64,000 bases of DNA from an uncultured Gammaproteobacteria bacterium (GTDB taxonomy: Bacteria > Pseudomonadota > Gammaproteobacteria > Eutrophobiales > Eutrophobiaceae), in the NCBI GenBank assembly GCA_958295485.1, contig OY282354.1, positions 2,812,042 to 2,876,041 on the forward strand. The letters are read 5' to 3'. Within the stretch, counting starts at the first letter, position 1; each line of letters opens with the position of its first letter. A program made the position numbers and the translations under genes. This document shows positions 6,925 to 52,497 of the stretch, piece by piece. The notes under the pieces are model-generated. The model worked only from the letters and a program-made list of their open reading frames with translations. It had not been told where the DNA came from and made no database searches.

Positions 6925-8709
6925 CTAATGTGAATTCCTGGGCGTCCCATGGCGCTCAATAATCCGAACATATTCCTCATCTAACTCTAAACATGCTCCC
7001 CTGTCCAGCTGCCCTACTGTCTTTCGATAGAGCTCCTGCCAGGGTGTCGCATTCTCAAGCGCCTCTTTCTTCAATTTCGCTTTGCGGAGTTCCAATTCAG
7101 CAGATTCCACCAGCAGGTTTACACTGTTCGATACCAAGTCAATTTCCAGCATATCGCCATTCTCGAGTACAGCCAGACCGCCACCTGCGGCGGCCTCTGG
7201 AGACACGTTAAGGATCGACGGGCTTGCCGAAGTCCCGCTCTGACGTCCGTCGCCCATACAGGGCAGTTCGCGGATTCCCTGTTTAACCAGTATGGCGGGC
7301 GGCAACATATTGACCACCTCCGCAGAGCCAGGATAGCCCACCGGCCCACAGTTGCGGATAACCAGAATGCAGTGCTGATCAATATCCAATGAAGGATCAT
7401 CTATACGCTGGTGATAGTCTTCCGGCCCCTCAAAAATGACCGCTCTTGCCTGGAAACAATTTGGGTGTTGCGAATGGCTCAGATATTTTTCTCGGAACTC
7501 AGCGCTGATCCCGGACTTTTTCATTAGTGCGGAATCGAACAGGTTTCCGGACATAACGGCAAAGCCAGCGTTTTCCATCAAGGGAGCCGACACTGGTTTA
7601 ATCACTTTGTTATTGCCAGGGAAGCAGCCCGTTATGTTCTCGGCCAGTGTTTTGCCGGTTACGGTCAGGGTGTCACCTTCAATCAACCCTGCAGCAATCA
7701 GTTGGTTTAGAACAGCGGGCATGCCGCCGGCTCGGTAAAAGTCTTCGCCCAGGAATTCCCCTGTGGGCTGGCAGTTCACGATGAGAGGGATATGTTCTCC
7801 ATAGTTTTGCCAATCCGTGATATTTAAATCCTGTAATCCGAGCTGTTTGGCCATAGCCAGCCAATGCACAGGCGCATTGGACGACCCGCCGATGGCGCTG
7901 GTCACCACAATGGCATTATGGAATGCATCGGAGGTCATGATACGGCTGGGGCGAAGATCCTCATGTACCAGTGCAACGCTGCGAAAGCCGGTCTCATAGG
8001 CCATCTGCGCCCGCGCCTGGTAAGTTGCGGGAATCGCAGCACAGCCCGGCAACGACATGCCCAGCGCCTCAGCCATGCAGTTCATGGTCAGGGCAGTACC
8101 CATGGTATTGCAATGACCGACACTGGGACTGGAGTCGCGAACGTTGCGCATAAAGCCTTGATGATCGATTTCCCCGGCGGCGTATTGCTCGCGTGAACGC
8201 CAGATCACCGTACCGGAACCGATTCGCTCATCACCTTGCCAGCCGTTGTTCATGGGGCCGCCGGATAGCACGATAGCGGGGAGGTCAACAGCAGCAGCGG
8301 CCATCAAAGTGGCTGGTGTGGTTTTATCGCAGCCGGTAGTAAGCACCACACCATCAAGCGGATAGCCGTGCAGTATTTCCACCAATCCTAAAAATGCCAG
8401 ATTGCGATCCAGGGCGGCAGTGGGACGGCGACCCTGTTCATGAACAGGATGCACCGGAAACTCCAATGGAATACCGCCTGCGTCACGAATCCCGTCACGC
8501 ACCCGTTTTGCCAGTTCCAGGTGATGACGATTACAGGGCGCCAGATCGCTACCGGTCTGGGCGATGCCAATAATGGGTTTGCCGGACTGTAATTCCCCCG
8601 GGGTCAGGCCGTAGTTAAAATATCGCTCGACATAGAGCGCCGTCTGATCCGGCTGCCCGGGATTGTTAAACCAGTCTTCGCTACGAAGTCTTTTCTTACG
8701 TGAAGCCAT
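6925..8709 (-). CDS. IlvD/EDD-family sugar-acid dehydratase (L-arabinonate/D-xylonate/galactonate dehydratase type)
   Basis: 594 aa. N-terminal RSEDWF...PIIGIAQTGSDLAPCNRHH...TTGCDKTTPA...SGGPMNNGW blocks closely match recalled L-arabinonate dehydratase (AraC/XylD) sequences, including the Fe-S cluster cysteines. Confidence 0.85.
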   Translation of the reverse strand: MASRKKRLRSEDWFNNPGQPDQTALYVERYFNYGLTPGELQSGKPIIGIAQTGSDLAPCNRHHLELAKRVRDGIRDAGGIPLEFPVHPVHEQGRRPTAALDRNLAFLGLVEILHGYPLDGVVLTTGCDKTTPATLMAAAAVDLPAIVLSGGPMNNGWQGDERIGSGTVIWRSREQYAAGEIDHQGFMRNVRDSSPSVGHCNTMGTALTMNCMAEALGMSLPGCAAIPATYQARAQMAYETGFRSVALVHEDLRPSRIMTSDAFHNAIVVTSAIGGSSNAPVHWLAMAKQLGLQDLNITDWQNYGEHIPLIVNCQPTGEFLGEDFYRAGGMPAVLNQLIAAGLIEGDTLTVTGKTLAENITGCFPGNNKVIKPVSAPLMENAGFAVMSGNLFDSALMKKSGISAEFREKYLSHSQHPNCFQARAVIFEGPEDYHQRIDDPSLDIDQHCILVIRNCGPVGYPGSAEVVNMLPPAILVKQGIRELPCMGDGRQSGTSASPSILNVSPEAAAGGGLAVLENGDMLEIDLVSNSVNLLVESAELELRKAKLKKEALENATPWQELYRKTVGQLDRGACLELDEEYVRIIERHGTPRNSH

Positions 8710-8712
8710 GCA

Positions 8713-9606
8713 TCAGCTCTGTGAATTATCCAACCAGGACGCGGGAAAGCGCATATCCGGTATACCCTGAGTATTGGTTTTCAACGCGAATAGCGAACCG
8801 GCCAGAGGCTGCGCCTCTAATTCAGCGTCACTAAGGCCTTTTCTCGCGGTGGTAATGTACAAAGTGCGCAGATCGGAACCACCGAAACAGCAACTGGTGA
8901 CATTGGCTACCGGCATATCGACTACTTGATCCAGTGCGCCTCCAGGCGTATAGCGATGCAACCCCCATCCCGCAAACAACGCCACCCAAATATAACCCTG
9001 TTGATCGACAGTCATACCGTCGGGATATCCGAAATCTTCAGGAATAACAATGAAGGGGCGTTTGTTGGCAATCCCCCCTGCTTCATCAAGGTCAAAAGCG
9101 TAAATTGTCCTGTCCAGGGTTTCCGTGTGGTAAAGGATTTTTCCGTCCGAGCTCAGGGCTGGCCCATTGGTGATACCATAGCCCCTGTCCATGGCAACGA
9201 GTCCGCGATCGTCAAACCGGTAGAGCGTGCCGCAACGGGCGCTCTCCTTGTCATCCATGGTGCCAACCCAATATCGCCCGGATCGATCGAGCTTGCCGTC
9301 GTTGAAACGGTTGTTTTCGGGCTCTTGTTCAGGCCGATTCAGGAGTTTTATCCGGCTGATATCCAGGTCCAGCCTACCCAGTCCGTTTCTATGAGTGCAG
9401 AGATAACCGGCATCGCTACAAGGTACGATGCTGGTTACTTGCTCGGGGAAATACCAGCTTTCTTTCCGATCCATATCGGGTGAAAAACGATACACAAACT
9501 GTTGCTTGATATCGACAAAGAGCAGTTCCGCCTGGTCTTCAATCCAGACTGGCCCTTCACCAAGTTCGCAACCGCTCTGCCAGACGGCTTCTAGAAATCC
9601 ACCCAC
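8713..9606 (-). CDS. SMP-30/gluconolactonase/LRE-family sugar lactonase
   Basis: GEGPVWIEDQAELLFVDI, NDGKLDRSGRYWVGTM and GITNGPALS blocks of the six-bladed beta-propeller lactonases. Confidence 0.8.
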   Translation of the reverse strand: MGGFLEAVWQSGCELGEGPVWIEDQAELLFVDIKQQFVYRFSPDMDRKESWYFPEQVTSIVPCSDAGYLCTHRNGLGRLDLDISRIKLLNRPEQEPENNRFNDGKLDRSGRYWVGTMDDKESARCGTLYRFDDRGLVAMDRGYGITNGPALSSDGKILYHTETLDRTIYAFDLDEAGGIANKRPFIVIPEDFGYPDGMTVDQQGYIWVALFAGWGLHRYTPGGALDQVVDMPVANVTSCCFGGSDLRTLYITTARKGLSDAELEAQPLAGSLFALKTNTQGIPDMRFPASWLDNSQS

Positions 9607-10748
9607 TGACCGTCTGCTGCGGAAGATTTCAACACATTATCGATAAAACGTATGCCTTCCAATCCGTCTTCGACAGTGGGGACAAGCAGGCTACTCTGAT
9701 CCGGTTTACGGTTTTCAATATTAGCCCGAATTTGCTCGGCTGCATCCAGATAGATCTGTGCAAAACCTTCCAGGTAGCCCTCTGGATGGCCGGGAGGTGT
9801 ACGGGTTGCATGGGCAGCGGCCTCACCGGTACCCGCTCCGCCCCTGGTGATGATCTGAGCAGGTTCCCCCAGAGCGCTCCAATACAGACTATTGGGTTCT
9901 TCCTGCCGCCATTCCAGGCCTCCCTTTTCGCCATAAACCCGTATTTTCAGGGCATTAGCATTACCCGGCGCAACCTGGCTGGCCCAGATAGCGCCGCGCG
10001 CGCCATTGCTGTAGCGCAGCATGATTTGCACGTTATCGTCCAGTGCACGACCCTCGACAAAGGTATGCACGTCGGCTGACAATTGCCTTATCTTCAGACC
10101 GGTAATAAAGGCAGCCAGATTAAATGCATGAGTGCCTATATCGCCCAGACAGCCGGCCGGACCTGAGCGCGCCGGATCAGTGCGCCACTCCGCTTGTTTA
10201 ATGCCTTCATTTTCCAGGGGAGTGGAAAGCCAACCCTGAGGGTATTCAGCCTGTACTACGCGGATATTACCGAGCATGCCTTCGGCTACCATGTGCCGCG
10301 CATGTCTGACCAGCGGGTAAGCGGTATAGTTATGCGTCAGTGCAAATACACAGCCGGACTGCCGCACCGCCGTTTCCAGGGCTTCGGCATCGACCAGCGA
10401 TGAAGTCAAGGGCTTGTCGCAGATCACATGGATACCTTGCTCCAGGAAAGCTTTTGCTGCCGGGTAATGCAGATGGTTCGGAGTAACGATCCCTACCACA
10501 TCAATACCGTCTTCGCGCTTTGCCTCTGCCGCGGCCATTTCAGAAAAGTCGTCATAGATGCGGTCCGGGCTGATATTAATATCAGCGCCGGAGGCCTGGT
10601 TGTTTTCCGGGTCAGTTGAGAATACGCCGGCAACGAGCTCATATTGGTCGTCTATGCGTGCGGCAACCCTGTGAACGGCGCCTATAAAAGCCCCGATGCC
10701 GCCACCCACAAACCCAAGTCGTAACCTACGATTTCTTTTAGTCGTCAT
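9591..10748 (-). CDS. Gfo/Idh/MocA-family NAD(P)-dependent oxidoreductase (probable sugar 1-dehydrogenase)
   Basis: [18 protein letters not shown] Rossmann N-terminus and EKPL-type motif (ICDKPLTSS). Confidence 0.8.
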
Positions 10749-10755
10749 GATGCGC

Positions 10756-11814
10756 CTACCGGTCGAGTCCTAACAGCCGCGCATTACCTTTGACATCCGG
10801 GTCGCCATTGGCAAAATCGTCGAAAGCCCGGTCAGCGACATGAATGATATGGTCAGCAATGAATTTGGCGCCTTCCGCAGCGCCGTCGTCGGAATGTTTG
10901 AACACGCATTCCCATTCACAAATCGCCCAACCGTCGTAGTCGTACTTCGCCAACTTCGAGAACACGCTCTTGAAGTCCACCTGTCCGTCTCCGAGCGAGC
11001 GAAAGCGCCCGGCCCGATCTTCCCAGCGCGAATAGCCAGAATACACACCCTGACGGCCATCCGGCACAAATTCCCCATCCTTGGCCACAAACACCTTGAT
11101 ACGATCATGGTAGAGGTCAATGAAATGCAGATAATCCAACTGTTGTAAAACCAGATGACTGGTATCGTAAAGAATATTGCAACGCGGGTGCCCGTCCAGC
11201 AAACCCAGGAAGCGTTCAAAGCTTGCGCCATCAAACAGATCCTCGCCTGGATGGATTTCATAACAGACATCAACGCCCAACTCATCGAACCTGTCCAGTA
11301 TCGGTTTCCAGCGCTTTGCCAGTTCCGCGAATGCCGCTTCCACCAGACCAGCCGGTCGTGGCGGCCAGGGGTAGAGAAAAGGCCAGGCCAGGGCGCCGGA
11401 AAAGGTCGAGTGCCGATCCAGGCCAAGATTGGCGGACGCCTGCGCGGATAGCATAAGCTGTTGAACCGCCCATTCTTGACGGGCCACGTGGTTGCGATGT
11501 ACGCCCGGCGGGGCGAAACCGTCAAACACATCGTCATAGGCCGGATGTACAGCCACAAGCTGTCCCTGCAGATGAGATGTCAGGTCTGTTAATTCCAGAT
11601 TATTCTCAGCCAGTATGCCTTTGATGTCGTCACAGTAGTCTCTATTCTGCGCAGCTTTTTGCAAATCAAAAAACCGCGGATCCCAAGTAGGCAGTTGCAA
11701 ACCCTTGTAGCCCAGAGACGAAGCCCATGCGGCGATATCAGGAAGGTTATTAAAGGGCGGGTTATCCGTGGCAAATTGGGCGATAAAAATAGCCGGGCCT
11801 TTGATGGTTTTCAT
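10756..11814 (-). CDS. xylose-isomerase-like TIM-barrel sugar phosphate isomerase/epimerase
   Basis: 352-aa ORF with the general pattern of AP-endonuclease-2/xylose-isomerase-like barrels. It is the first gene of the minus-strand operon, directly downstream of the operator palindrome. Confidence 0.6.
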   Translation of the reverse strand: MKTIKGPAIFIAQFATDNPPFNNLPDIAAWASSLGYKGLQLPTWDPRFFDLQKAAQNRDYCDDIKGILAENNLELTDLTSHLQGQLVAVHPAYDDVFDGFAPPGVHRNHVARQEWAVQQLMLSAQASANLGLDRHSTFSGALAWPFLYPWPPRPAGLVEAAFAELAKRWKPILDRFDELGVDVCYEIHPGEDLFDGASFERFLGLLDGHPRCNILYDTSHLVLQQLDYLHFIDLYHDRIKVFVAKDGEFVPDGRQGVYSGYSRWEDRAGRFRSLGDGQVDFKSVFSKLAKYDYDGWAICEWECVFKHSDDGAAEGAKFIADHIIHVADRAFDDFANGDPDVKGNARLLGLDR

Positions 11815-11856
11815 TGATTTATCACCTTTCCAGGGTAATTAAGTGACAGAAAATTA

Positions 11857-11872
11857 ATGGTAACGTTACCAT
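11857..11872. promoter_or_regulatory. candidate LacI-family operator, perfect palindrome ATGGTAACGTTACCAT
   Basis: Seen directly in the sequence, 43 bp upstream of the start of the minus-strand dehydratase operon and next to the LacI gene. Has the TGnnAnCGnTnnCA architecture of LacI/GalR/CcpA-type operators. Confidence 0.45.
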
Positions 11873-11923
11873 AGTTTATCGAAATTTCAAAGTGTTCTGA
11901 ACCTGTTAGAGAGCAGCTTAGCT

Positions 11924-12934
11924 CTATCCCCGCAACGGCGCCGTTGAATCCCGAACGACCAGCTTGTGCGAGACAATTTCAAGTGGGTTTGTGATCTGCT
12001 GACCCTGAATCAGACTGCATAGCAGATAGAGTCCGTGCTCGCCGATTTCCTGGGCTGGCTGGGCAATGGTCGTTAAAGGCGGAGTCATCACTTCAGCATA
12101 GCGGGTGTTGTCATAACCCATGATGGAAATATCATCCGGTATCCTAAGGCCGGCAGCCGCTATTTCCGCATAGGCGCCCAAAGCCATTTCATCATTTGTA
12201 CAAAAGATTGCCGTTGGTTTGCCACCCATTTTAAGTATTCGCCGGGTAGCCTTGCGACCACCTTCGATGGAAAGACTGCCGGGCGCCACCCAAGCTTCAT
12301 TCACCTTTAAACCAGCCTCTTTCATGGCTTCGCGAAAACCCATCTCCCGCTCACGCGTCAAAATCGAGCCTTCCTGACCACCGATACAGGCAATCTTTTG
12401 ATGGCCCAATTGCAGCAGGTGTTTCGTCGCATCCTTGCCGGCCGCCAGGTTATCGATCCGCACGGCGGGCAAGGATTCCAATCCAGGTACGACCGCTTCA
12501 CAACAAATAACAATAGGGGGAATTACTCTCGAGTTTTTCAGCGAATCGGAAAATGGAGAGCGTGCGCCCAACAGAATAATGCCGTCGGACTGCTTGGAGA
12601 GAATAAAATTGGTAAGCTCGTCCTTTGCAACCGGGTGGGCATCAGCTTCCTTAATCAGAATCATGTAGCTGAGCTCGCTGGCAACACGGTTGATACCCTC
12701 CATTACATCGGTAAAGAAGGGATCGCCGATGCCAGATACTACTACCACGATAATTCCGGTACTGCCGGTACGGAAATTCCGTGCTATCCGGTTGGGCGCA
12801 AACCCCATTTCCTGAACCACTTCAGCGACCTTACTTCTGGTCGCCGACTTGACGCTGTCCGGATCGTTAAAATATCGCGAAACCGTGGTTACCGATACGC
12901 CTGCCACTTCGGCAACTTCTTTCATTGACGCCAT
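11924..12934 (-). CDS. LacI-family transcriptional regulator
   Basis: N-terminal HTH MASMKEVAEVAGVSVTTVSRYFN and a periplasmic-binding-protein-like sugar-binding core. 336 aa. Confidence 0.9.
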   Translation of the reverse strand: MASMKEVAEVAGVSVTTVSRYFNDPDSVKSATRSKVAEVVQEMGFAPNRIARNFRTGSTGIIVVVVSGIGDPFFTDVMEGINRVASELSYMILIKEADAHPVAKDELTNFILSKQSDGIILLGARSPFSDSLKNSRVIPPIVICCEAVVPGLESLPAVRIDNLAAGKDATKHLLQLGHQKIACIGGQEGSILTREREMGFREAMKEAGLKVNEAWVAPGSLSIEGGRKATRRILKMGGKPTAIFCTNDEMALGAYAEIAAAGLRIPDDISIMGYDNTRYAEVMTPPLTTIAQPAQEIGEHGLYLLCSLIQGQQITNPLEIVSHKLVVRDSTAPLRG

Positions 12935-13079
12935 AAGACAACTTTATCTATCTCCGCATAATTGACCGCATTATACAGCTTGATTTGAAGCCGTCGGGAA
13001 AATCTTTTTCGGATTGCGCTATCAAGCTGTTTGGTCCCGACTGAAAAATGGAACAGCATTCATTTTAACACATCAAAAA

Positions 13080-13095
13080 ATGGTAACGTTTGCAT
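13080..13095. promoter_or_regulatory. degenerate copy of the operator (ATGGTAACGTTTGCAT) plus a TTACCAT half-site at 13117-13123
   Basis: Seen in sequence about 57 bp upstream of the SDR/SDR/mutarotase operon, and divergent from the LacI gene. Confidence 0.3.
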
Positions 13096-13151
13096 TTTTT
13101 TTCATAAACCTGAATAATTACCATCAAATAAACCGAAACAACCCTGACTGA

Positions 13152-13892
13152 ATGGCCGCAAGACTTAAAAACAAAACCATCCTGGTAACGGGTTCTGCCC
13201 AAGGTATTGGGCTGGCCAGCGCCCAGGCGTTTTTGGCTGAAGGCGCCAAGGTGATTGCTACGGATATTAATCTTGGACCGTTAAAAAACTCTGGATTAAG
13301 TGGTAACGCCGAGATCATCCCACTGGACGTGACAGATGCTCAGGCGATTAAGCAACTTGCTATACAGAATCCCGAGGTTTCCGTTTTGATGAATTGCGCT
13401 GGCACGGTGTGCAACGGCGCCGTTTTGGACTGCACCATCGAAGATATGAAGAAAAGCTTTGCGCTGAACGTATTTTCCATCTATAGCACGATACAAGCCT
13501 TCCTCCCCGCTATGCTGGAACGCGCTCAGGGATCAATAATCAATATCGCCTCGGTGGTATCCACTGTTACAACAGCAACTAACCGCTTTGCCTACAGCGC
13601 CAGCAAAGGCGCGGTCATTGCCCTGACTCGTTCCGTTGCGCGCGATTACATTGAATCAGGTGTGCGCTGTAACGCTATCAGCCCGGGAACAGTATATACA
13701 CCTTCCCTGGAGGAGCGTATTTCCGCAACGGATAACCCGGACGCCACCCGCAAAATGTTTATTGACAGGCAGCCCATGAAACGGCTTGGCCGAGCGGAAG
13801 AGATTGCGTCCGCGGCCGTTTATCTGGCCTCTGATGAATCGGCCTTTACCAGCGGAGAGAACCTGGTGATCGACGGCGGTTTCAGCCTGTAA
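13152..13892 (+). CDS. SDR-family oxidoreductase
   Basis: TILVTGSAQGIGLASAQAF Rossmann motif and YSASKGAV catalytic YxxxK. Confidence 0.85.
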   Translation: MAARLKNKTILVTGSAQGIGLASAQAFLAEGAKVIATDINLGPLKNSGLSGNAEIIPLDVTDAQAIKQLAIQNPEVSVLMNCAGTVCNGAVLDCTIEDMKKSFALNVFSIYSTIQAFLPAMLERAQGSIINIASVVSTVTTATNRFAYSASKGAVIALTRSVARDYIESGVRCNAISPGTVYTPSLEERISATDNPDATRKMFIDRQPMKRLGRAEEIASAAVYLASDESAFTSGENLVIDGGFSL

Positions 13893-13911
13893 CCACAAGA
13901 AGAGGGTTTGA

Positions 13912-14718
13912 ATGAACAGACAAACTAACAAAGCGGAAGACAAACTCGCCATTGTCACAGGCGGCGGCGCGGGAATAGGCGTCGATATTGTTCTAAGTCT
14001 CGCCAAACAGGGCTGGGACACAGTGATTAACTATTGGCATTCCGCCGAGCAAGCGAACCAGGTGGCAGAAAAAGCAACGGATTTCGGAGTTCAGGCGTTA
14101 TGCGTGCAGGCCGATGTAGGTAATGCTCAGGATATCGGCAACCTGTTTGATCTGTGCATACAACATTTTGGCAAAACCCCAAACCTGCTGGTAAACAATG
14201 CAGCTGTGCAAACTTGGTCCAGCTTTCTGGATCTTGCCGAGGAAGACTGGGCCAGCACCATCCAAACCAACCTGACCGGCTGCTTCCTCACCTCACAAAA
14301 ATTTGCCAGAAATCTGGTCCGGGATGGTAAAAAAGGAGCGATTGTCAACATTGGCTCAGGCTGTAATAAGTTGGCTTTCCCCAACCTGGTTGACTACACC
14401 GCATCCAAAGGCGGTTTGGAGATGCTGACAAAATCTGTTGCCGTTGAACTGGCCCCCCACGGGATAAGGGTCAATTGCGTGGCGCCGGGTGCGATAGAAA
14501 CCGGGCGCACACAAGCCGAAGCCGATGGTTATGCGGAGATTTGGGGCGATTTCACCCCGATGGGAAGGGTGGGAACACCCGATGATGTCGCCAAGGCAGT
14601 ACTCTTTTTTGCAAACCAGGACTCCGACTATATAACAGGCCAAACACTGTGGGTGGACGGCGGTGTATTTACCAAGGCAAACTGGCCCTATCAAAATGAT
14701 CCGCCTGGAAAAAATTGA
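13912..14718 (+). CDS. SDR-family oxidoreductase
   Basis: LAIVTGGGAGIG Rossmann motif, NNAAV and YTASKGGL catalytic motif. Confidence 0.85.
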   Translation: MNRQTNKAEDKLAIVTGGGAGIGVDIVLSLAKQGWDTVINYWHSAEQANQVAEKATDFGVQALCVQADVGNAQDIGNLFDLCIQHFGKTPNLLVNNAAVQTWSSFLDLAEEDWASTIQTNLTGCFLTSQKFARNLVRDGKKGAIVNIGSGCNKLAFPNLVDYTASKGGLEMLTKSVAVELAPHGIRVNCVAPGAIETGRTQAEADGYAEIWGDFTPMGRVGTPDDVAKAVLFFANQDSDYITGQTLWVDGGVFTKANWPYQNDPPGKN

Positions 14719-15760
14719 TCAACAAAGGATTTCCTCCGGCGAAAAGGTCGGTCTGTACAGGCTATCGAACAGCCAGGGGGTGGAAATTGAGATAATCGAA
14801 CTCGGCGGTGCGATAAGATCGCTTAAAACACCCGACTGGCGGGGCGACCAGGGAGACATTGTCCTCGGTTACCAAGGCGCCCAGGACTATCTGCTTGACG
14901 ACTGCTATATGGGAACCCTGATTGGTCGCTATGCGAATCGCATCGCCGGGGGCCGATTCAGACTGGGTAACAAATCCTACCAATTAACTACCAATGAAGG
15001 CGGCAATCATCTGCACGGGGGTAGAGTCGGTTTCAATAAGCGCCTGTGGCAGGCATCCGAATACCAGGATTCGACCGGGCCGACGCTAAAATTGACCCTG
15101 CGCAGCCCTGATGGCGAAGAAGGTTTTCCCGGCACTCTGGATATCTCGGTGGTCTATTCGCTATCGGAAAACAATCGATTCAATATTTTCTACGAAGCCA
15201 CCACGGATGCCGACACCATCCTTAACCTTACTCAGCATAGCTATTTTAATCTCTCCGCCGGGCAGGTGGATACCATTCTTGAGCATGAGCTGCAGATTCA
15301 GGCATCACACTACTTGCCAATCACCGAAAATCTCATCCCTGACGGTAAATTTGAAAACGTTTCCAGATCACCCCTTAATTTTTTAACTTCGAAACCTATA
15401 GGAAAAGATATTCATTCCACACACCCGCAAATTAATCTGGCCAAAGGTTACGATCACACGCTGGCGCTTGATCCTGGCCACCAGTCTTTCCACAAAGCAA
15501 CGGTTAATGAACCCGTATCCCGACGCCAAATGTTACTTTATACAGATCGACCCGGAGTTCAGCTCTACACGGGAAACTCATTAATAAAACCTTTAAAAAC
15601 AAAGGTAAAATCGGATTTAAACTTTATAAAATGGGGCGCCTTTTGTCTGGAGGCGCAGTCTTTTCCGGATGCTCCCAATCACCCCCTGTTTCCCTCTGCA
15701 AATTTATCCGCAGGCGGGATATACCGCACCGCCAGTAGCTATGAATTTCAATGTATCTAG
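14696..15760 (+). CDS. aldose 1-epimerase (galactose mutarotase family)
   Basis: MIRLEK... N-terminus, with NEGGNHLHGG and FCLEAQSFPDAPNHP blocks typical of mutarotases. Start chosen at the internal Met of ORF 14663..15760, overlapping the upstream SDR stop by 23 bp. Confidence 0.75.
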   Translation: MIRLEKIDQQRISSGEKVGLYRLSNSQGVEIEIIELGGAIRSLKTPDWRGDQGDIVLGYQGAQDYLLDDCYMGTLIGRYANRIAGGRFRLGNKSYQLTTNEGGNHLHGGRVGFNKRLWQASEYQDSTGPTLKLTLRSPDGEEGFPGTLDISVVYSLSENNRFNIFYEATTDADTILNLTQHSYFNLSAGQVDTILEHELQIQASHYLPITENLIPDGKFENVSRSPLNFLTSKPIGKDIHSTHPQINLAKGYDHTLALDPGHQSFHKATVNEPVSRRQMLLYTDRPGVQLYTGNSLIKPLKTKVKSDLNFIKWGAFCLEAQSFPDAPNHPLFPSANLSAGGIYRTASSYEFQCI

Positions 15761-15846
15761 ATCCAATGAGCTCGTCGCGGGAATACTGTCATCTCGCAAA
15801 TATCAATGAACTATTCCGGGTTAAATGTTGTTTTTTGTTTTTAATT

Positions 15847-15862
15847 ATGGTAACGTTACCAT
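15847..15862. promoter_or_regulatory. candidate LacI-family operator ATGGTAACGTTACCAT (copy in duplication unit 1)
   Basis: Perfect 16-bp palindrome identical to the site at 11857. Confidence 0.45.
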
Positions 15863-15955
15863 AATGAATGAATATAAAGCGTAAAACAGTTTTCACATTT
15901 ACTAATACCTGCAAACAACCTGCACAAATACATTACAAAAAGGGGGATTTCCACC

Positions 15956-16090
15956 ATGTTAAATAAAAGCAATCCGTTTGGCTGGCTTAATCCGGCGTTT
16001 TACATAGCCCCACTTATCATATTTGCCGCATCTCCGGCAGTTTTTAATGAGCTCGTTACAAGAATACTGTCATCTCGCAAATATAAATGA
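15956..16090 (+). pseudogene. 44-codon orphan ORF: duplicated signal-peptide start of the TonB-dependent receptor (MLNKSNPFGWLNPAFYIAPLIIFAASPAVF) fused to 14 out-of-context codons
   Basis: Created by the tandem duplication. Has its own AAGGGGG Shine-Dalgarno sequence and the same first 30 residues as the receptor at 16238. Confidence 0.5.
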
Positions 16091-16127
16091 ACTATTCCGG
16101 GCTGAATGTTGTTTTTTGTTTTTCATA

Positions 16128-16143
16128 ATGGTAACGTTACCAT
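16128..16143. promoter_or_regulatory. candidate LacI-family operator ATGGTAACGTTACCAT (copy in duplication unit 2, proximal to the receptor gene)
   Basis: Perfect 16-bp palindrome 95 bp upstream of the receptor start codon. Confidence 0.45.
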
Positions 16144-16237
16144 TATGAATGAATATAAAGCGTAAAACAGTTTTCACATTTACTAATTACCTGCAAACAA
16201 CCTACACAAATGCATTACAAAAAGGGGGATTCCCACC

Positions 16238-18757
16238 ATGTTAAATAAAAGCAATCCGTTTAGCTGGATTAATCCGGCGTTTTACATAGCCCCACTTATC
16301 ATATTTGCCTCATCTCCGGCAGTTTTTATCGCTACCGCAACGATCAGCCCTTCCGTGCTTGCACAGGATGGCGCGTTGGAAGAAGTCGTAGTAAGCGCCC
16401 GTAGAAGGGAAGAAAACCTGCAGGATGTTCCGGATACGGTGGTAGCCTTCACGGCGGAAACCATAGAGCGCGCTAATATCGAGATGGTCAGGGATATAAC
16501 CGCTGCTATTCCAAACGTCTCTATTGAGGAATCTCTAAGCCCGAACTCGACGTTCATTGGAGTACGCGGAATCGTTTCCACCCGGAACGGCGAACCGGCG
16601 GTAGCCATGGTCGTGGATGGTGTGCAAATAGGTAGCGCCGCGGAAGTGTCCCAAGCGTTCAGTGACGTTGAACAAATTGAATTACTAAAAGGTCCTCAGG
16701 GCGCCTTATATGGACGTAACGCCATCGGCGGCGCCTTATTGGTTACCACCAAAAAACCCTCCCAGGAATCCGCGGCTAACTTCACCGCAGGCATTGGTGG
16801 CAACGGGTGGGTCGAGGCTTCAGGGTCCGTCAGCGGTCCGATAAGCGACAACCTGTTTTTCAGGGTTTCAGGAAACTTCAAGGACTTCGACGGCACTATT
16901 GAAAACGAATACCTGGCGGGCTTGCTCGACAACAATGTCGTAATACCCGGCTTCCAGAATGACCTCGATAGTGACGAAACCTACGTAGACTTTGAGAATA
17001 ACAAGGATTGGCGCGCACGGTTGCTTTGGGAGGCATCAGAAAATACCGAAGTTGATTTCAGATACTCCCACAATGAGCTTGAAGCAGGCTCCTTCTGGTA
17101 TCGACCATTGTTTCGACTCGAAACTCCGGGGGTTCTCTATGATTTCCCCATCGGTAACGATGTAAACACTGCCGCCATCAGGGAGCTTGATAATTTTACC
17201 GTCAAAATCGACCATCAGGCATCTTTCGCCACCATTACCTCGATTACCTCCTATACCAGTACCGAGGAGCGTTATGGCGTCGCTTTTGAGGGCCGTGGTT
17301 CGTTTCAAATCGGCGATGTGGATTTCATAAACGACCAGTTCGTCGCCGAATTCGGCACCACGCGCTTCCCCAACGCTTCTCAAGCAGATATTGACCTTCT
17401 GAATGCACAGTTTGGCCAGGACGTGGGTAGTGACCAATTTTACGACATCGAAAACTGGTCACAGGAAATACGTTTTACATCTCCGGATGAAGGGCGTTTC
17501 CGTTGGGTGGCAGGCGCCTACGCTTTATGGACCGATCGCAAAGATACTATCCGCGCGGATTACTATAACAATCAGGGGTTGCCGCTTGACGGTACCTTGA
17601 ATACCTCACCCGATGCGCAGGGGTTGGATGGCGCGCTTCCCAATGCACTTTTGTTTGAAACATCCAATGACCAGGACAATTTCGCCTGGGCCCTTTTCTT
17701 TAATGCTGACTACGATCTGACGGACAGACTAACCTTAACCGGTGCACTTCGCTACGATCGGGATGGCCGGGAACTTACCCGGATTTCCGGACCGACAGTT
17801 GATGACGGTGGCGCCACTGGAGCGCTGCTCCAGACCTGTGTCGCCGATGGCGGCGTGACCTGCACCGCGTCCGGCACGGTAGAAGATGCGACCTTTTCCG
17901 CCTTCCAGCCCAAATTCTCACTCGCCTACGCCTGGTCTGACGACGTCACCCTGTATGGTACTTACGCACGGGGCTTCCGCAGTGGAGGTTTTAACGGAAC
18001 TAACGCGCTGCTGACAGAAACCTACGACAAGGAAATCCTGGACAGTTACGAGCTTGGCTTCAAGTCAACCCTGGTGGGAGGCACGCTACGACTCAATGGC
18101 GCCTTTTTCTACCAGGATTGGGAAAACTCACAAGTATTTGAGTTTGACGGCCAAGTGTTCGTACAAAGCCTGTACAACATACCCGAGAGTGAGGTTTACG
18201 GCGGTGAGCTAAGCTTTGACTGGGCCGCTACCGATAATCTGACTGTAAGTGGTGGCTTCGGCATCATGGAATCCGAGATCAAGGAATTTAATCCGGATAT
18301 TCGCGACAGGCTGCAAGCTGAAATCAATGCCAGATTTAGCAACACCGTTGCCCTGACCCCGGATGTACAAGCCGAATTCGATAGCAATTTTGAAGGCAAC
18401 AAGCTGGTAAAATTCCCACACCAAACGGCTAACCTCTCGCTGGTACACGAACTTCCCCTGAATAGCTTTGGAGGAAGCGATTTAATCACCCGCATTGACT
18501 ACAACGTACGCTCCAAACGGTTCTGGTGGATCGATAATATCAACGAAGAGGACACCGAACAGTTCGTTAATGTCAGTGTTTCCCTGGGCTTTGGCGACAA
18601 CTGGGAATTGCAGGGCTGGTGTAAAAACTGTTTAGACAACCAATCATTATCTGCATATGAACCGGCCGAGATGGTTCTGTTCGGTGGGGCTGCATTAGAC
18701 GTCGCCTACGAGGCAAGGCGCAGAACCTATGGAATAAAAGTGAACTATAGTTTCTAA
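16238..18757 (+). CDS. TonB-dependent outer-membrane receptor
   Basis: Long signal peptide and an EEVVVSARRREENLQDVPDTV TonB-box/plug region. 839 aa with a C-terminal ...YGIKVNYSF ending in Phe. Confidence 0.9.
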   Translation: MLNKSNPFSWINPAFYIAPLIIFASSPAVFIATATISPSVLAQDGALEEVVVSARRREENLQDVPDTVVAFTAETIERANIEMVRDITAAIPNVSIEESLSPNSTFIGVRGIVSTRNGEPAVAMVVDGVQIGSAAEVSQAFSDVEQIELLKGPQGALYGRNAIGGALLVTTKKPSQESAANFTAGIGGNGWVEASGSVSGPISDNLFFRVSGNFKDFDGTIENEYLAGLLDNNVVIPGFQNDLDSDETYVDFENNKDWRARLLWEASENTEVDFRYSHNELEAGSFWYRPLFRLETPGVLYDFPIGNDVNTAAIRELDNFTVKIDHQASFATITSITSYTSTEERYGVAFEGRGSFQIGDVDFINDQFVAEFGTTRFPNASQADIDLLNAQFGQDVGSDQFYDIENWSQEIRFTSPDEGRFRWVAGAYALWTDRKDTIRADYYNNQGLPLDGTLNTSPDAQGLDGALPNALLFETSNDQDNFAWALFFNADYDLTDRLTLTGALRYDRDGRELTRISGPTVDDGGATGALLQTCVADGGVTCTASGTVEDATFSAFQPKFSLAYAWSDDVTLYGTYARGFRSGGFNGTNALLTETYDKEILDSYELGFKSTLVGGTLRLNGAFFYQDWENSQVFEFDGQVFVQSLYNIPESEVYGGELSFDWAATDNLTVSGGFGIMESEIKEFNPDIRDRLQAEINARFSNTVALTPDVQAEFDSNFEGNKLVKFPHQTANLSLVHELPLNSFGGSDLITRIDYNVRSKRFWWIDNINEEDTEQFVNVSVSLGFGDNWELQGWCKNCLDNQSLSAYEPAEMVLFGGAALDVAYEARRRTYGIKVNYSF

Positions 18758-18947: not shown

Positions 18948-19421
18948 TTATCGCTGTAAGAAGAAATTTTCGCGTGGACAGTATTTCCGCTCCGGAGGAA
19001 CAGTCGGCGTATCACAATCTTCCGCGCTACCACGAAAGGTCAATTCGATCATGATGCCGCTTGGGTCGTATACGAATAGCTGCCAAAGGTCGATTTCCTC
19101 AAGAATATTTTCTCGCCAGGCAAGCCCATGTTGTTCAAATAACGCCCGAAACGATGTGAATCCATGCGCTTCAATGGAGATATGATCGATAACCCCAGAC
19201 CCCACAGCCATTGATCCATCTGGCTCGCGCGCGGTATCTCCGGCATAAAGATGAATAATGATATCGCCGCTGGCCGTACCGGTTCGAAACCAGGCGCCTT
19301 CGAATCCAACATCAGGGCGCGGCGCCGGTTCAAGCCCCATGACGTCAGAGTAAAAGCGTTTCGAAGCGTCAAGGTCCGGAGTCTTTATGGCGATGTGGAA
19401 TAATTTTGTTACCAGCCTCAT
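18948..19421 (-). CDS. VOC-family (glyoxalase/bleomycin-resistance/dioxygenase fold) protein
   Basis: HIAIKTPDLDASKRFYSDVMGL N-terminal paired beta-alpha-beta-beta-beta module. About 157 aa. Confidence 0.65.
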   Translation of the reverse strand: MRLVTKLFHIAIKTPDLDASKRFYSDVMGLEPAPRPDVGFEGAWFRTGTASGDIIIHLYAGDTAREPDGSMAVGSGVIDHISIEAHGFTSFRALFEQHGLAWRENILEEIDLWQLFVYDPSGIMIELTFRGSAEDCDTPTVPPERKYCPRENFFLQR

Positions 19422-19462
19422 GGTTTTTTCCTCATGGTTTTTTCCTCACAGTCGTTTCGTCA

Positions 19463-51034: not shown

Positions 51035-51541
51035 ATGAAAAAACTCGGTGTAATTATAGTCGTGCTGTGCCTGTCAATCACACCGGCGCTCGCTGACTTT
51101 AACGATGGCGTTTATGCTTATTCGATTGGTGAATATCGCAGGGCGTATAACACCATGCGGTCACTGGCTGAAACTTCCGACCATGGCCTGGCTCAATACT
51201 ATTTGGCCATGATGTACTTCAGGGGAAATGGGGCAGAGCAAAGTTACGAAGAGGCGGCGAAATGGTTTCGAAAAGCGGCGGAACAACGAGTCAAACAGGC
51301 CCAATACCAGTTAGGGGAGTTTTATATGAACGGCAGGGGTCTGCCAAGAGATTATGAGTACGCCTATGCCTGGTATCGGGTGGGCGCTGAACACAAGCAT
51401 AAAAAATCAATAGACGCGTTAGATGCGGCAAAATCGAACCTTTCGGATGAGGAACTGAAAGAAGCAGAGAAACTCTCGCGGGAATTTATAAAGAAATTCG
51501 GCCCGTTGCCTGACCAACCTGAAAAAAACATCGGCCCTTAA
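51035..51541 (+). CDS. Sel1-repeat (TPR-like) secreted protein
   Basis: Signal peptide, then repeated A.YYLA.MYF.G.G...EA.KWFRKAAEQ Sel1 modules. Confidence 0.8.
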   Translation: MKKLGVIIVVLCLSITPALADFNDGVYAYSIGEYRRAYNTMRSLAETSDHGLAQYYLAMMYFRGNGAEQSYEEAAKWFRKAAEQRVKQAQYQLGEFYMNGRGLPRDYEYAYAWYRVGAEHKHKKSIDALDAAKSNLSDEELKEAEKLSREFIKKFGPLPDQPEKNIGP

Positions 51542-51855
51542 TCCGGGAGAAACGGAGAGTATCGTGCCGTCAACCGGGAGGATTTGGGGGCTGTTTTTCC
51601 GTTCCGCGCAAAGTCTCTCCAAAACAGCCCCCAAATCCTCTCTCAGCCCGGTGGCTTTACAAGCATGAGCTTGCCTTGGCAAACGCGGCCTTTTCCGGAA
51701 AGTGGGAAATCCGGGAGAAATAGAGAATATCGTGCCGTCAACCGGGGGGATTTGCGGGCTGTTTTTCCGTTCCGCGCAAAGTCTCTCCAAAACAGCCCGC
51801 AAATCCCCCCTCGGCCCGGTCGGCTTTACAAACGTGGTCTTGCCTTGGTCAAACT
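51541..51855. repeat. two tandem about 168-bp repeat units, each containing an 18-bp-stem hairpin (GGATTTGGGGGCTGTTTT...AAAACAGCCCCCAAATCC)
   Basis: Unit 1 is 51541-51708 and unit 2 is 51709 to about 51855. The hairpins are at 51580-51638 and about 51748-51806. Unit 2 carries a compensatory G/C to C/G change in the stem. Confidence 0.8.
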
Positions 51856-51870
51856 ATCAGGGTAAATGCA

Positions 51871-52497
51871 TCAAAAATCAAAGACCTGGCCCCTTGCGCT
51901 TTGAAGATCTTCAGGCCGATCAATATCACGCCGCCTGACTAATTCATACGACTTTAATTTCAATTGCGCAACCCTCTCCCGGGTTTTTTCCAAAACCCTG
52001 TCTGTTCCCCACTCGATATTGATGAATAGTTGTCGATATGATTTTGTCAGTCCAATTAAATAATATCCGCCGTCATAAGCCGGACCTAAAACGACATCAC
52101 AGCCGTTTATTAATTTTTCCAAGGCAAGTTCAAGGTCAAACTCGCTCAATTCAATGCAGTCACTCCCGATGAGCAATACACCGTTATAACTTCGCAAGGC
52201 CTGCTCAATGGCAAAACACATGCGTTCTCCTAAATCACCGCCGGCCTGGGTTTTAAGCGTAATCGAAAAATTTTCAGCATGGGCGGCCAATACTTGATGC
52301 TCAGTGGTAGGCGTACACCATAACTCTATATGCTTGATGGACGACCGTTTGGCGGTTTCAATCGTCTGTTTTAATAATTCAGTATGGATTTCAACCGCCC
52401 CGGCCTCACCTGTTATCGGTATAAGGCGGGTTTTTACCTTTCCCGGAATGGGTGTCCTGGTAAATATAAGCAATACCACCTCTTTTTTAACCCGCAT
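51871..52497 (-). CDS. DUF2064-type glycosyltransferase-A-fold protein (TIGR04282-like)
   Basis: VVLLIFTRTPIPGKVKTRL N-terminus recalled from the DUF2064 family. Paired with the downstream GT2. Confidence 0.55.
   Translation of the reverse strand: MRVKKEVVLLIFTRTPIPGKVKTRLIPITGEAGAVEIHTELLKQTIETAKRSSIKHIELWCTPTTEHQVLAAHAENFSITLKTQAGGDLGERMCFAIEQALRSYNGVLLIGSDCIELSEFDLELALEKLINGCDVVLGPAYDGGYYLIGLTKSYRQLFINIEWGTDRVLEKTRERVAQLKLKSYELVRRRDIDRPEDLQSARGQVFDF

What the first reader, a model, noticed from the sequence alone, without database searches (positions are those of the whole stretch)
15765..16327. 281-bp tandem duplication copying promoter, LacI-type operator and signal-peptide start of a TonB-dependent receptor, creating an orphan 44-codon leader ORF
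Two direct copies sit at 15765-16045 and 16046-16327, with about 96% identity. Each contains the palindrome ATGGTAACGTTACCAT, an AAGGGGG Shine-Dalgarno sequence, and the ATG plus first 30 codons of the receptor. Copy 1 therefore encodes a stand-alone extended signal peptide (15956-16090) that runs into a stop. The about 12 differences between copies argue against a simple assembly artefact. They point to an older duplication that doubled the operator and promoter dosage upstream of the receptor. A possible consequence is altered repression or induction of substrate uptake. Another is a cis-acting leader peptide.
Basis: seen in the sequence. Interest (0 to 1): 0.55.

Follow-up and report, generated by a model that had tools for sequence, protein, structure and literature searches.

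The report
Diverged tandem duplication upstream of receptor
A 281-bp stretch holding a repressor binding site, the ribosome binding site and the first 30 codons of an outer-membrane sugar-uptake receptor gene is present twice in a row, which is a real but ordinary type of mutation that leaves the gene intact and adds a spare binding site and a short orphan reading frame.

Summary
Two head-to-tail copies lie at 15765-16045 and 16046-16327. The numbers need correcting: 16 substitutions plus 1 indel, 94.0% identity, not about 12 differences and 96%.

The unit starts 5 nt after the stop of an aldose-1-epimerase gene. It ends 30 codons into a TonB-dependent receptor gene (TBDR, 16238-18757).

The operator reading is well supported. 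The 16-bp palindrome ATGGTAACGTTACCAT also sits, exact, upstream of the AP_endonuc_2/GFO operon (11857-11872). A version with two mismatches sits in the divergent LacI/SDR promoter region (13080-13095). The motif is also kept in the only close relative found.

The "promoter" is assumed, not shown; a sigma-70 consensus scan found nothing. The 44-codon ORF (15956-16090) exists but has no homologue and looks like a by-product.

The repressor is 336 aa and lacks LacI's tetramerisation tail, so LacI-style looping is not supported.

No other genome or metagenome holds this region, so one copy versus two cannot be compared.

The most likely reading is a moderately old, near-neutral tandem duplication by illegitimate recombination. 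It adds an auxiliary operator and possibly a second repressible promoter. It is a new member of a known kind, of low to moderate interest.

The parts
15765..16045 (+). Copy 1 of the tandem duplication (281 nt). It begins 5 nt after the epimerase stop codon (15758-15760). It carries an operator, a Shine-Dalgarno sequence, an ATG and 30 codons of the receptor's signal peptide.
16046..16327 (+). Copy 2 (282 nt). It is continuous with the intact receptor gene and is presumably the working regulatory region.
15847..15862 (.). Operator-like palindrome ATGGTAACGTTACCAT in copy 1. The extended palindrome 15841-15868 matches 13 of 14 per arm.
16128..16143 (.). Operator-like palindrome ATGGTAACGTTACCAT in copy 2, 95-110 nt upstream of the receptor ATG. 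The extended perfect 28-nt palindrome spans 16122-16149.
15940..15946 (+). Shine-Dalgarno-like AAGGGGG of copy 1, 9 nt before ATG 15956.
   Evidence: read directly
16222..16228 (+). Shine-Dalgarno-like AAGGGGG of copy 2, 9 nt before ATG 16238.
   Evidence: read directly
15956..16090 (+). Orphan 44-codon ORF MLNKSNPFGWLNPAFYIAPLIIFAASPAVFNELVTRILSSRKYK. It is 30 codons of truncated signal peptide plus 14 codons read from the 5' end of copy 2. It has a hydrophobic core and a basic tail.
16023..16045 (+). Weak terminator-like hairpin (6-bp stem, 4 G-C pairs) followed by U5 at the end of copy 1. It folds at -9.7 kcal/mol, against -5.4 for the equivalent in copy 2. The difference comes from G16028 versus T16310.
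16238..18757 (+). Intact TonB-dependent receptor gene (839 aa; Plug and beta-barrel domains).
14663..15760 (+). Aldose 1-epimerase (mutarotase) gene directly upstream of the duplication. The likely real start is ATG 14696.
11924..12934 (-). LacI-family regulator (336 aa; HTH plus periplasmic-binding-protein fold; no C-terminal tetramerisation segment). It is the presumed binder of the palindromes.
11857..11872 (.). Third exact copy of ATGGTAACGTTACCAT, 43 nt upstream of the AP_endonuc_2/GFO operon start. The relative L001 has it at the same spacing.
13080..13095 (.). Related site ATGGTAACGTTTGCAT (2 mismatches) in the divergent LacI/SDR promoter region, 57-72 nt upstream of the SDR start.

Best explanation
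This is a genuine, not very recent, tandem segmental duplication. It covers the whole epimerase-receptor intergenic region plus the first 30 codons of a LacI-regulated TonB-dependent receptor gene.

It most likely arose by illegitimate recombination or replication slippage, because the junction shares only one base. A tandem duplication breaks nothing, so the receptor gene stays intact behind copy 2, which serves as its working control region.

Copy 1 is a redundant relic. It still carries a perfect repressor binding site, a ribosome binding site and a start codon. That automatically yields a 44-codon orphan ORF: a truncated signal peptide that runs into a stop.

Inferred consequences:
- an auxiliary operator 281 bp upstream of the main one;
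- if the unit contains a promoter, a second promoter under the same repressor. Its transcripts would either end at the weak hairpin plus U5 at the end of copy 1 or read on into the receptor gene.

The net effect on receptor expression is probably small, so the duplication is near-neutral or mildly beneficial. The anatomy and the operator assignment are shown. Promoter activity, repressor binding and any change in expression are inferred.
For: Anatomy of the repeat:
- It is found by three methods.
- The junction reads ...GTTTTTA|ATGAGCTC..., with only 1 nt shared between the two ends.
- The differences are 16 substitutions against 1 indel. This argues against sequencing or assembly noise and for elapsed time.
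- The longest identical runs between the copies are 42, 41 and 29 nt. Recombinational collapse is therefore still possible but slowed.

Operator assignment:
- The exact 14-mer core occurs 3 times in the window, all within one 4.3-kb gene cluster around a LacI-family gene, plus a 2-mismatch site in that gene's divergent promoter. Shuffles give a mean of 1.6 hits even when 3 mismatches are allowed.
- The site positions fit the -140 to -30 rule, and the motif fits the central-CG even-palindrome rule for LacI-family sites (PMC4052901; distances).
- The relative L001, whose TBDR is 81% identical, has the motif at the same 43-nt spacing from AP_endonuc_2. It has a second degenerate copy upstream of its own TBDR.

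Gene and ORF:
- The receptor is intact, with Plug and barrel domains.
- The orphan ORF has no homologue other than the receptor's own N-terminus.
- No Rfam family reaches its gathering score in the region. The only match at E<=1 is a chance-level SraB hit, 19.5 bits against a 130-bit gathering score.
Against: - No second genome of this species exists in any collection searched. The single-copy ancestral state and the reality of the two copies in the cell were not confirmed independently.
- Neutrality is a default, not a result.
- Persistence to 6% divergence, despite possible recombinational loss, could mean the duplication is selected.
- Both operators are still perfect, although chance alone gives about a 0.37 probability of no hit in 16 bp at 6% divergence.
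- Two of the substitutions are mirror-symmetric in the palindrome arms (about p = 0.014 by simulation, post hoc). That hints at constraint on both copies.
Confidence: 0.6

Rival explanations
1. Adaptive regulatory duplication. The two operators, and two tandem repressible promoters, are kept by selection. They would either tighten repression through cooperative binding to two sites or raise induced receptor expression by adding promoter P1 to promoter P2.
For: - Both 16-bp operator cores are intact after 6% divergence.
- The substitutions at 15846 and 15863 are mirror positions (+/-9 from the palindrome centre) and keep symmetry in both copies. The simulated probability is about 0.014.
- About 20% of LacI-family-regulated operons carry more than one site (PMC4052901).
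- The relative L001 also has two operator-like sites, 106 bp apart, between AP_endonuc_2 and its TBDR.
- The duplication has survived although identical runs of 29-42 nt remain.
Against: - The repressor is 336 aa. It aligns only to LacI residues 6-330 of 360, so it lacks the tetramerisation helix needed for LacI-type looping.
- The 281-bp spacing equals 26.8 helical turns, which is not clearly in phase.
- No consensus promoter is detectable in either copy.
- The chance that a 16-bp block escapes all hits at 6% divergence is about 0.37, so intact operators are weak evidence.
- No second genome shows conservation of the arrangement.
Confidence: 0.25
2. Functional leader. The 44-codon ORF is translated. 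Together with the hairpin plus U5 at 16023-16045, which lies inside the ORF, it would couple translation to read-through of P1 or epimerase-operon transcripts into the receptor gene (attenuation). Alternatively the ORF encodes a small membrane peptide.
For: - The ORF has the same Shine-Dalgarno sequence and ATG as the receptor.
- The hairpin plus U5 is stronger in copy 1 (-9.7 kcal/mol, z -2.75) than in copy 2 (-5.4), and it lies within the ORF.
- The peptide has a hydrophobic core and a basic C-terminal tail.
Against: - The ORF is an automatic by-product of duplicating a gene start.
- There is no homologue and no conservation.
- No alternative antiterminator structure or regulatory codons were identified.
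- The hairpin is weak: a 6-bp stem, with a single base accounting for the difference between copies.
- All 3 differences in the duplicated coding part change the amino acid (G9S, L11I, A25S).
- No known RNA family matches.
Confidence: 0.07
3. Assembly artefact. Two alleles of the region from a mixed population, or a mis-joined bubble, were laid down in tandem, and the cell has only one copy.
For: - Two copies that differ by 6% are also what two haplotypes placed head to tail would look like.
- No reads or second assembly were available.
- The exact receptor protein is on record from one 3.57-Mb contig only.
Against: - The unit is only 281 bp. Its ends are sharp and non-homologous, with 1 nt of shared sequence. 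Haplotype tandemisation normally happens at read-length scale and between homologous ends.
- The flanks show no sign of it.
- The window contains another diverged intergenic tandem repeat (51540-51854), so such structures seem to be a feature of this genome.
- The differences are substitutions, not the homopolymer indels typical of long-read errors.
Confidence: 0.06

Closest known systems
Spontaneous tandem segmental duplications in bacterial genomes, formed by illegitimate or short-homology recombination. The tandem duplication behind the Cit+ trait in the E. coli long-term evolution experiment is an example. (Own knowledge.)
   Same: The copies are head to tail with no spacer. The junction has minimal microhomology. 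No gene is disrupted. The duplicated segment includes regulatory DNA.
   Different: - No new promoter-gene combination is created, because the gene's own control region is duplicated in front of itself.
- The unit is very short (281 bp).
- The copies have diverged by 6%, so this is an old fixed variant rather than an unstable amplification.
LacI-family operators with auxiliary sites: lac O1/O2/O3, gal OE/OI, and the multi-site operons catalogued in PMC4052901.
   Same: The site is a 16-bp even palindrome with a central CG. It lies about 100 nt upstream of the start codon. A second identical site is nearby. A LacI-family gene sits in the cluster and appears to regulate itself.
   Different: - The two sites are 281 bp apart and arose by duplication of the whole region, not as separate sites.
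- The regulator has no tetramerisation tail.
- Binding and cooperativity are untested.
Sugar-regulated TonB-dependent receptors in carbohydrate-utilisation loci of marine and plant-associated Gammaproteobacteria. (Own knowledge.)
   Same: The TBDR is embedded in a sugar oxidation cluster with mutarotase, SDR dehydrogenases, a lactonase, an IlvD/Edd-type dehydratase, GFO/IDH/MocA and AP_endonuc_2 genes, together with a LacI-family regulator. TBDR homologues at 58-62% identity also sit next to LacI-family genes.
   Different: The substrate is unknown. The duplicated control region is peculiar to this genome.
Leader-peptide attenuators (trp, his, pheA type).
   Same: There is a short ORF upstream of a gene, and a hairpin plus U-run lies within it.
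   Different: There are no regulatory codons, no alternative antiterminator and no conservation. The ORF is a truncated copy of the downstream gene's own signal peptide.

Membership tests
Tandem segmental duplication | Two or more head-to-tail copies with no intervening sequence, at an identity far above chance | tested here: met
   281/282 nt, 94.0% identity, E 5e-122, abutting at 16045/16046
Tandem segmental duplication | Single-copy state in related genomes | tested here: inconclusive
   The only close relative (L001/L002, TBDR 81% aa) has no tandem repeat upstream of its TBDR. Its intergenic DNA cannot be aligned apart from the operator. No genome of the same species was found.
LacI-family operator | Even palindrome of 16-22 nt with a central CG | tested here: met
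   ATGGTAACGTTACCAT is 16 nt and a perfect palindrome with a central CG. The criterion is from PMC4052901.
LacI-family operator | Located about 30-140 nt upstream of the regulated start codon | tested here: met
   Copy 2 lies 95-110 nt upstream of ATG 16238. Copy 1 lies 94-109 nt upstream of the orphan ATG, but 376-391 nt upstream of the real gene.
LacI-family operator | A LacI-family regulator gene nearby, and the same motif at other operons of the cluster, including the regulator's own promoter | tested here: met
   The LacI-family gene is at 11924-12934. There is an exact site at 11857-11872 and a 2-mismatch site at 13080-13095.
LacI-family operator | Conservation of the motif at orthologous positions in another genome | tested here: met
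   L001 has ATGGTAACGTTACCAC 43 nt upstream of AP_endonuc_2, the same spacing as in the window. It has a second, degenerate site upstream of its TBDR.
LacI-family operator | Physical binding by the regulator and release by an effector | not testable with these tools
   This needs EMSA, footprinting or ChIP.
Sigma-70 promoter (duplicated) | Recognisable -35 and -10 hexamers at 16-18 nt spacing | tested here: not met
   The scan found 0 sites in 15500-16500 at its threshold, against 2.5 expected in shuffles. By eye, only partial matches appear, for example CATAAT overlapping the palindrome arm.
LacI-type repression loop (auxiliary operator) | Repressor able to bridge two operators through a C-terminal tetramerisation helix, as in LacI residues about 340-357 | tested here: not met
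   The regulator is 336 aa. Its alignment to LacI chains covers LacI residues 6-330 only.
LacI-type repression loop (auxiliary operator) | Operators spaced by an integral number of helical turns | tested here: inconclusive
   281 bp is 26.8 turns at 10.5 bp per turn.
Leader-peptide attenuator | A short translated ORF overlapping mutually exclusive terminator and antiterminator structures, conserved among relatives | tested here: not met
   The ORF is present and there is a weak hairpin plus U5. No alternative structure was found, no homologue of the peptide exists and no Rfam match reaches significance.
TonB-dependent receptor (the downstream gene) | N-terminal signal peptide, Plug domain and 22-strand barrel domain | tested here: met
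   PF07715 Plug (E 2.8e-16) and PF00593 barrel (E 1.9e-30). The N-terminus is hydrophobic and ends in VLA-QD. Homology to relatives begins at the mature end.

The most novel reading that the evidence does not exclude
The duplication is kept by selection as a regulatory device. It gives two identical operators and two tandem repressible promoters in front of a sugar-uptake receptor. Upstream transcripts would be gated by translation of the 44-codon truncated signal-peptide ORF across a hairpin plus U5. This would be a control circuit built in one step by duplicating a gene's own start region.
Probability: 0.12. Interest if true: 0.5.

Novelty: new member of a known kind. Interest (0 to 1): 0.22.

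Why it matters
If the two-copy state changes the receptor's repression or induction, it would be a clean natural example of regulatory evolution by duplication of a short control region. One copy against two copies is easy to compare with a reporter. The result would also help define the regulon of an uncharacterised LacI-family repressor that controls an oxidative sugar pathway and its outer-membrane importer. Otherwise it is an ordinary, harmless structural variant. Its main practical value is as an annotation warning: the 44-codon ORF should not be called a gene, and the receptor's true start is 16238.

Tried and rejected
1. Same-species comparison, all negative:
- Exact-protein look-ups of the receptor found no contig on record.
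- Two genome-contig scans found nothing closer than 62%.
- A metagenome-contig scan with a 32-mer shared by both copies found nothing.
So one copy versus two could not be checked.

2. Mobile or repeated element: the unit has no other copy in the window or in the fetched loci beyond the operator core. Rejected.

3. Known RNA element or riboswitch: the Rfam E-value scan of 15400-16700 gave only a chance-level SraB hit (19.5 bits against a gathering score of 130). Rejected.

4. Insertion of a LacI-SDR-SDR-epimerase cassette as the cause of the duplication:
- The relative L001 lacks these four genes between AP_endonuc_2 and its TBDR.
- Neither the epimerase nor the regulator has a homologue above 48% and 55% identity respectively.
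- However, L001/L002 carry relic fragments of the neighbouring dehydratase gene, IS elements and a frameshifted TBDR. Loss in that lineage is therefore at least as likely as gain here.
The direction is unresolved, and no link to the duplication could be shown.

5. The idea that the signal peptide and promoter were 'replaced': dropped. Signal peptides of all relatives are mutually unalignable, and intergenic DNA is not expected to align at 74% coding identity.

6. The hairpin just after the epimerase stop (-8.3 kcal/mol in copy 1, -1.1 in copy 2): not better than shuffles (z -0.43). It stays a remark only.

7. The XbaI and SacI sites at the left boundary as a sign of engineering: rejected. The copies differ by 6%, and there is no vector sequence.

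8. A literature search for the motif string found nothing. A general search for comparable promoter or operator duplications gave no useful paper.
Full report
**Observation**

The sequence at 15765-16327 is two abutting direct copies of a 281/282-nt unit.
- The repeat finder reports two families with start-to-start spacing of 281 and 282 nt.
- Tandem Repeats Finder reports 15765-16328, period 282, 2.0 copies, 93% matches, score 1007.
- A global alignment gives 16 substitutions (10 transitions, 6 transversions) and one 1-nt indel, which is 94.0% identity.

The coordinates and content are right. BLAST of the unit against the window gives E = 5e-122 for the partner copy. It finds nothing else except the palindrome core.

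**Anatomy**

- The unit starts 5 nt after the TAG stop (15758-15760) of an aldose-1-epimerase gene (PF01263, E 9e-77).
- It ends exactly 30 codons into an 839-aa TonB-dependent receptor gene (TBDR), 16238-18757, which has Plug and barrel domains.
- Each copy holds the 16-bp palindrome ATGGTAACGTTACCAT (15847-15862 and 16128-16143).
- Each copy holds AAGGGGG nine bases before an ATG (15956 and 16238).
- The junction reads GTTTTTA|ATGAGCTC. Comparison with the outer ends (..ATCCA|ATGAGCTC and GTTTTTA|TCGCTACC) shows one shared base. I read this as illegitimate recombination or slippage. That is an inference.
- Copy 1's ATG opens a 44-codon ORF (15956-16090). It consists of 30 signal-peptide codons followed by 14 codons read from the start of copy 2, then TGA.
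- The receptor behind copy 2 is intact. ATG 16238 is the only in-frame start that leaves a signal peptide.

**Is the palindrome an operator?**

- A LacI-family gene (HTH PF00356 plus sugar-binding fold) lies at 11924-12934 on the minus strand.
- The exact 14-mer core TGGTAACGTTACCA occurs three times in 64 kb. Two are in the repeat. The third is at 11858-11871, 43 nt upstream of the AP_endonuc_2/GFO-IDH-MocA operon.
- A 2-mismatch version lies at 13081-13094, in the divergent region between the LacI-family gene and the SDR-SDR-epimerase genes.
- Dinucleotide shuffles give a mean of 1.6 hits even when three mismatches are allowed.
- The motif is an even palindrome with a central CG, and the sites lie 43-110 nt from start codons. 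These are the properties reported for the great majority of LacI-family sites. The same study reports that about three quarters of local regulators are autoregulated and that about 20% of operons have more than one site (PMC4052901).
- The closest relative that could be found is a metagenome contig, L001, whose TBDR is 81% identical. It has ATGGTAACGTTACCAC at the same 43-nt distance from its AP_endonuc_2 gene. It has a second, degenerate site (TAGTAACCTTACCA) upstream of its TBDR.

**Is a promoter duplicated?**

This is not shown. The consensus scan finds no sigma-70-like site anywhere in 15500-16500. By eye there are only partial matches. A CATAAT hexamer overlaps the right palindrome arm in copy 1 and the left arm in copy 2. 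An operator about 100 nt upstream of the ATG makes a receptor-specific promoter likely, but its position is unknown. The receptor might also be partly co-transcribed with the epimerase operon.

**Consequences that can be judged from sequence**

*Looping.* The regulator is 336 aa. It aligns to LacI chains only over LacI residues 6-330 of 360. It therefore lacks the C-terminal helix that makes LacI a tetramer. The spacing of 281 bp is 26.8 helical turns. LacI-style looping between the two sites is therefore not supported. Independent or weakly cooperative binding remains possible.

*Structure at the end of copy 1.* Copy 1 ends in a hairpin followed by U5 (16023-16045). It folds at -9.7 kcal/mol (z -2.75). 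The homologous stretch of copy 2 folds at -5.4. A single G/T difference (16028 versus 16310) accounts for this. It could stop some transcripts that start in, or pass through, copy 1, but it is weak.

*The 44-residue product.* It has a hydrophobic core and a basic tail. It has no homologue other than the receptor's own N-terminus. All three differences in the duplicated coding part change the amino acid (G9S, L11I, A25S). No Rfam family matches the region. Nothing singles the ORF out as more than a by-product.

**Signs of constraint**

Both 16-bp cores are untouched, but at 6% divergence that happens by chance about 37% of the time.

A more interesting point concerns the substitutions at 15846 (T/A) and 15863 (A/T). 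They are mirror positions, nine bases either side of the palindrome centre, and they keep complementarity in both copies. Copy 2 is a perfect 28-nt palindrome (16122-16149; -15.3 kcal/mol as RNA, z -5.4). Copy 1 matches 13 of 14 per arm.

A simulation of 16 random substitutions gives about 0.014 for such a symmetric pair. That is post hoc, so it is only suggestive. It could reflect selection on an extended operator. It could equally reflect template-switch 'correction' of a quasi-palindrome, which is a known mutational mechanism (own knowledge).

Four transitions are clustered at 15776-15780, 11-16 nt from the junction side of copy 2. They may be a single mutational event near the breakpoint.

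**Age and history**

Coding DNA of the flanking genes is 74% identical to L001, whereas the two copies are 94% identical. The duplication is therefore much younger than the split from that relative, but it is not recent. Identical runs of 42, 41 and 29 nt remain, so loss by homologous recombination is slowed but not excluded.

L001 has its TBDR directly divergent from AP_endonuc_2, 312 bp away, and has no tandem repeat. It lacks the LacI-SDR-SDR-epimerase block. The best other homologue of the epimerase is 48% identical and that of the regulator is 54-55% identical, out of 5.8 billion proteins.

L001 and L002 also carry relic fragments of the adjacent IlvD/Edd-type dehydratase gene and nearby transposases. 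In L002 the TBDR is split. Loss in that lineage is therefore at least as likely as gain in this one. No link between that rearrangement and the duplication could be demonstrated.

**Artefact?**

No reads were available. The exact receptor protein is on record from one 3.57-Mb contig only. Four things argue against an artefact:
- The unit is short.
- Its ends are sharp and non-homologous.
- The differences are dominated by substitutions.
- The same window holds a second diverged intergenic tandem repeat (51540-51854).

Two haplotypes laid head to tail cannot be formally excluded.

**Verdict**

- The operator, the ribosome binding site, the start codon, the orphan ORF and the 'older duplication' all hold.
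- The promoter, a dosage effect and a leader-peptide function are unproven.
- LacI-type looping is disfavoured.

The best explanation is a moderately old, near-neutral tandem duplication that left a spare operator and a pseudo gene start (confidence about 0.6). An adaptive two-operator or two-promoter arrangement is the main rival (about 0.25). It is a new instance of a well-known kind of event, and interest is low to moderate.

Noticed in passing
window 51540-51854: A second intergenic tandem repeat: period 168, 1.9 copies, 89% matches. It lies between a Sel1-repeat gene (51035-51541, +) and a DUF2064 gene (51871-52497, -). Each unit contains an internal inverted repeat (GGGGGCTGTTTT...AAAACAGCCCCC), so it resembles a REP- or MITE-like element present twice.
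   Followed up: partly
window 34647-37460 (-): A 937-aa ORF with serralysin-like peptidase M10 and RTX calcium-binding repeats. It is built from units of about 264 bp (88 aa) repeated several times at 79-93% DNA identity.
   Followed up: partly
window 15841-15868 and 16122-16149: The substitutions at 15846 and 15863 are mirror-symmetric around the palindrome centre and preserve complementarity in both copies. Copy 2 is a perfect 28-nt palindrome, far longer than the 16-bp core found at the other operators of the cluster.
   Followed up: partly
window 11924-15760: The best other homologue of the LacI-family regulator is 54-55% identical, and that of the epimerase is 48% identical, out of 5.8 billion proteins. 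The flanking TBDR has an 81%-identical relative, and the GFO and AP_endonuc_2 genes are 74% identical to that relative at the DNA level. The middle block is thus either a foreign acquisition or was lost from every sampled relative.
   Followed up: partly
L001 3098-3418; L002 1-3368 and 6001-8489: The relative lineage carries two short relic fragments of the IlvD/Edd-type dehydratase gene (homologous to window 6926-7119 and 7503-7605). L002 has transposase genes next to the cluster and a TBDR split into 484-aa and 353-aa ORFs, and its operator-like sites are mutated. This looks like a decaying locus.
   Followed up: partly
window 6925-18757: The gene content suggests a non-phosphorylative oxidative sugar pathway with its own outer-membrane importer, all carrying the same operator. 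The genes are an IlvD/Edd-family sugar-acid dehydratase, an SMP-30/gluconolactonase, GFO/IDH/MocA, a xylose-isomerase-like TIM barrel, two SDR dehydrogenases, a mutarotase and the TBDR. The substrate is unknown.
   Followed up: partly
window 15776-15780 vs 16057-16061: Four transitions are clustered within 5 nt, 11-16 nt from the duplication junction. They fall in the 5' arm of a hairpin (GCGGGA-N9-TCTCGC) that exists only in copy 1, just after the epimerase stop. It folds at -8.3 against -1.1 kcal/mol, but this is not better than shuffles.
   Followed up: partly
window 19416-19448: A perfect 14-bp tandem repeat, CCTCATGGTTTTTT, in 2.4 copies. It lies at the start of the glyoxalase-family gene (18948-19421, -), next to the end of the 2-hydroxyacid dehydrogenase gene.
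   Followed up: no
window 15755-15773 and 16049-16054: An XbaI site (TCTAGA, overlapping the epimerase stop codon) and SacI sites (GAGCTC) lie at the left edge of each copy. This is most likely coincidence, since there is no vector sequence and the copies differ by 6%.
   Followed up: no
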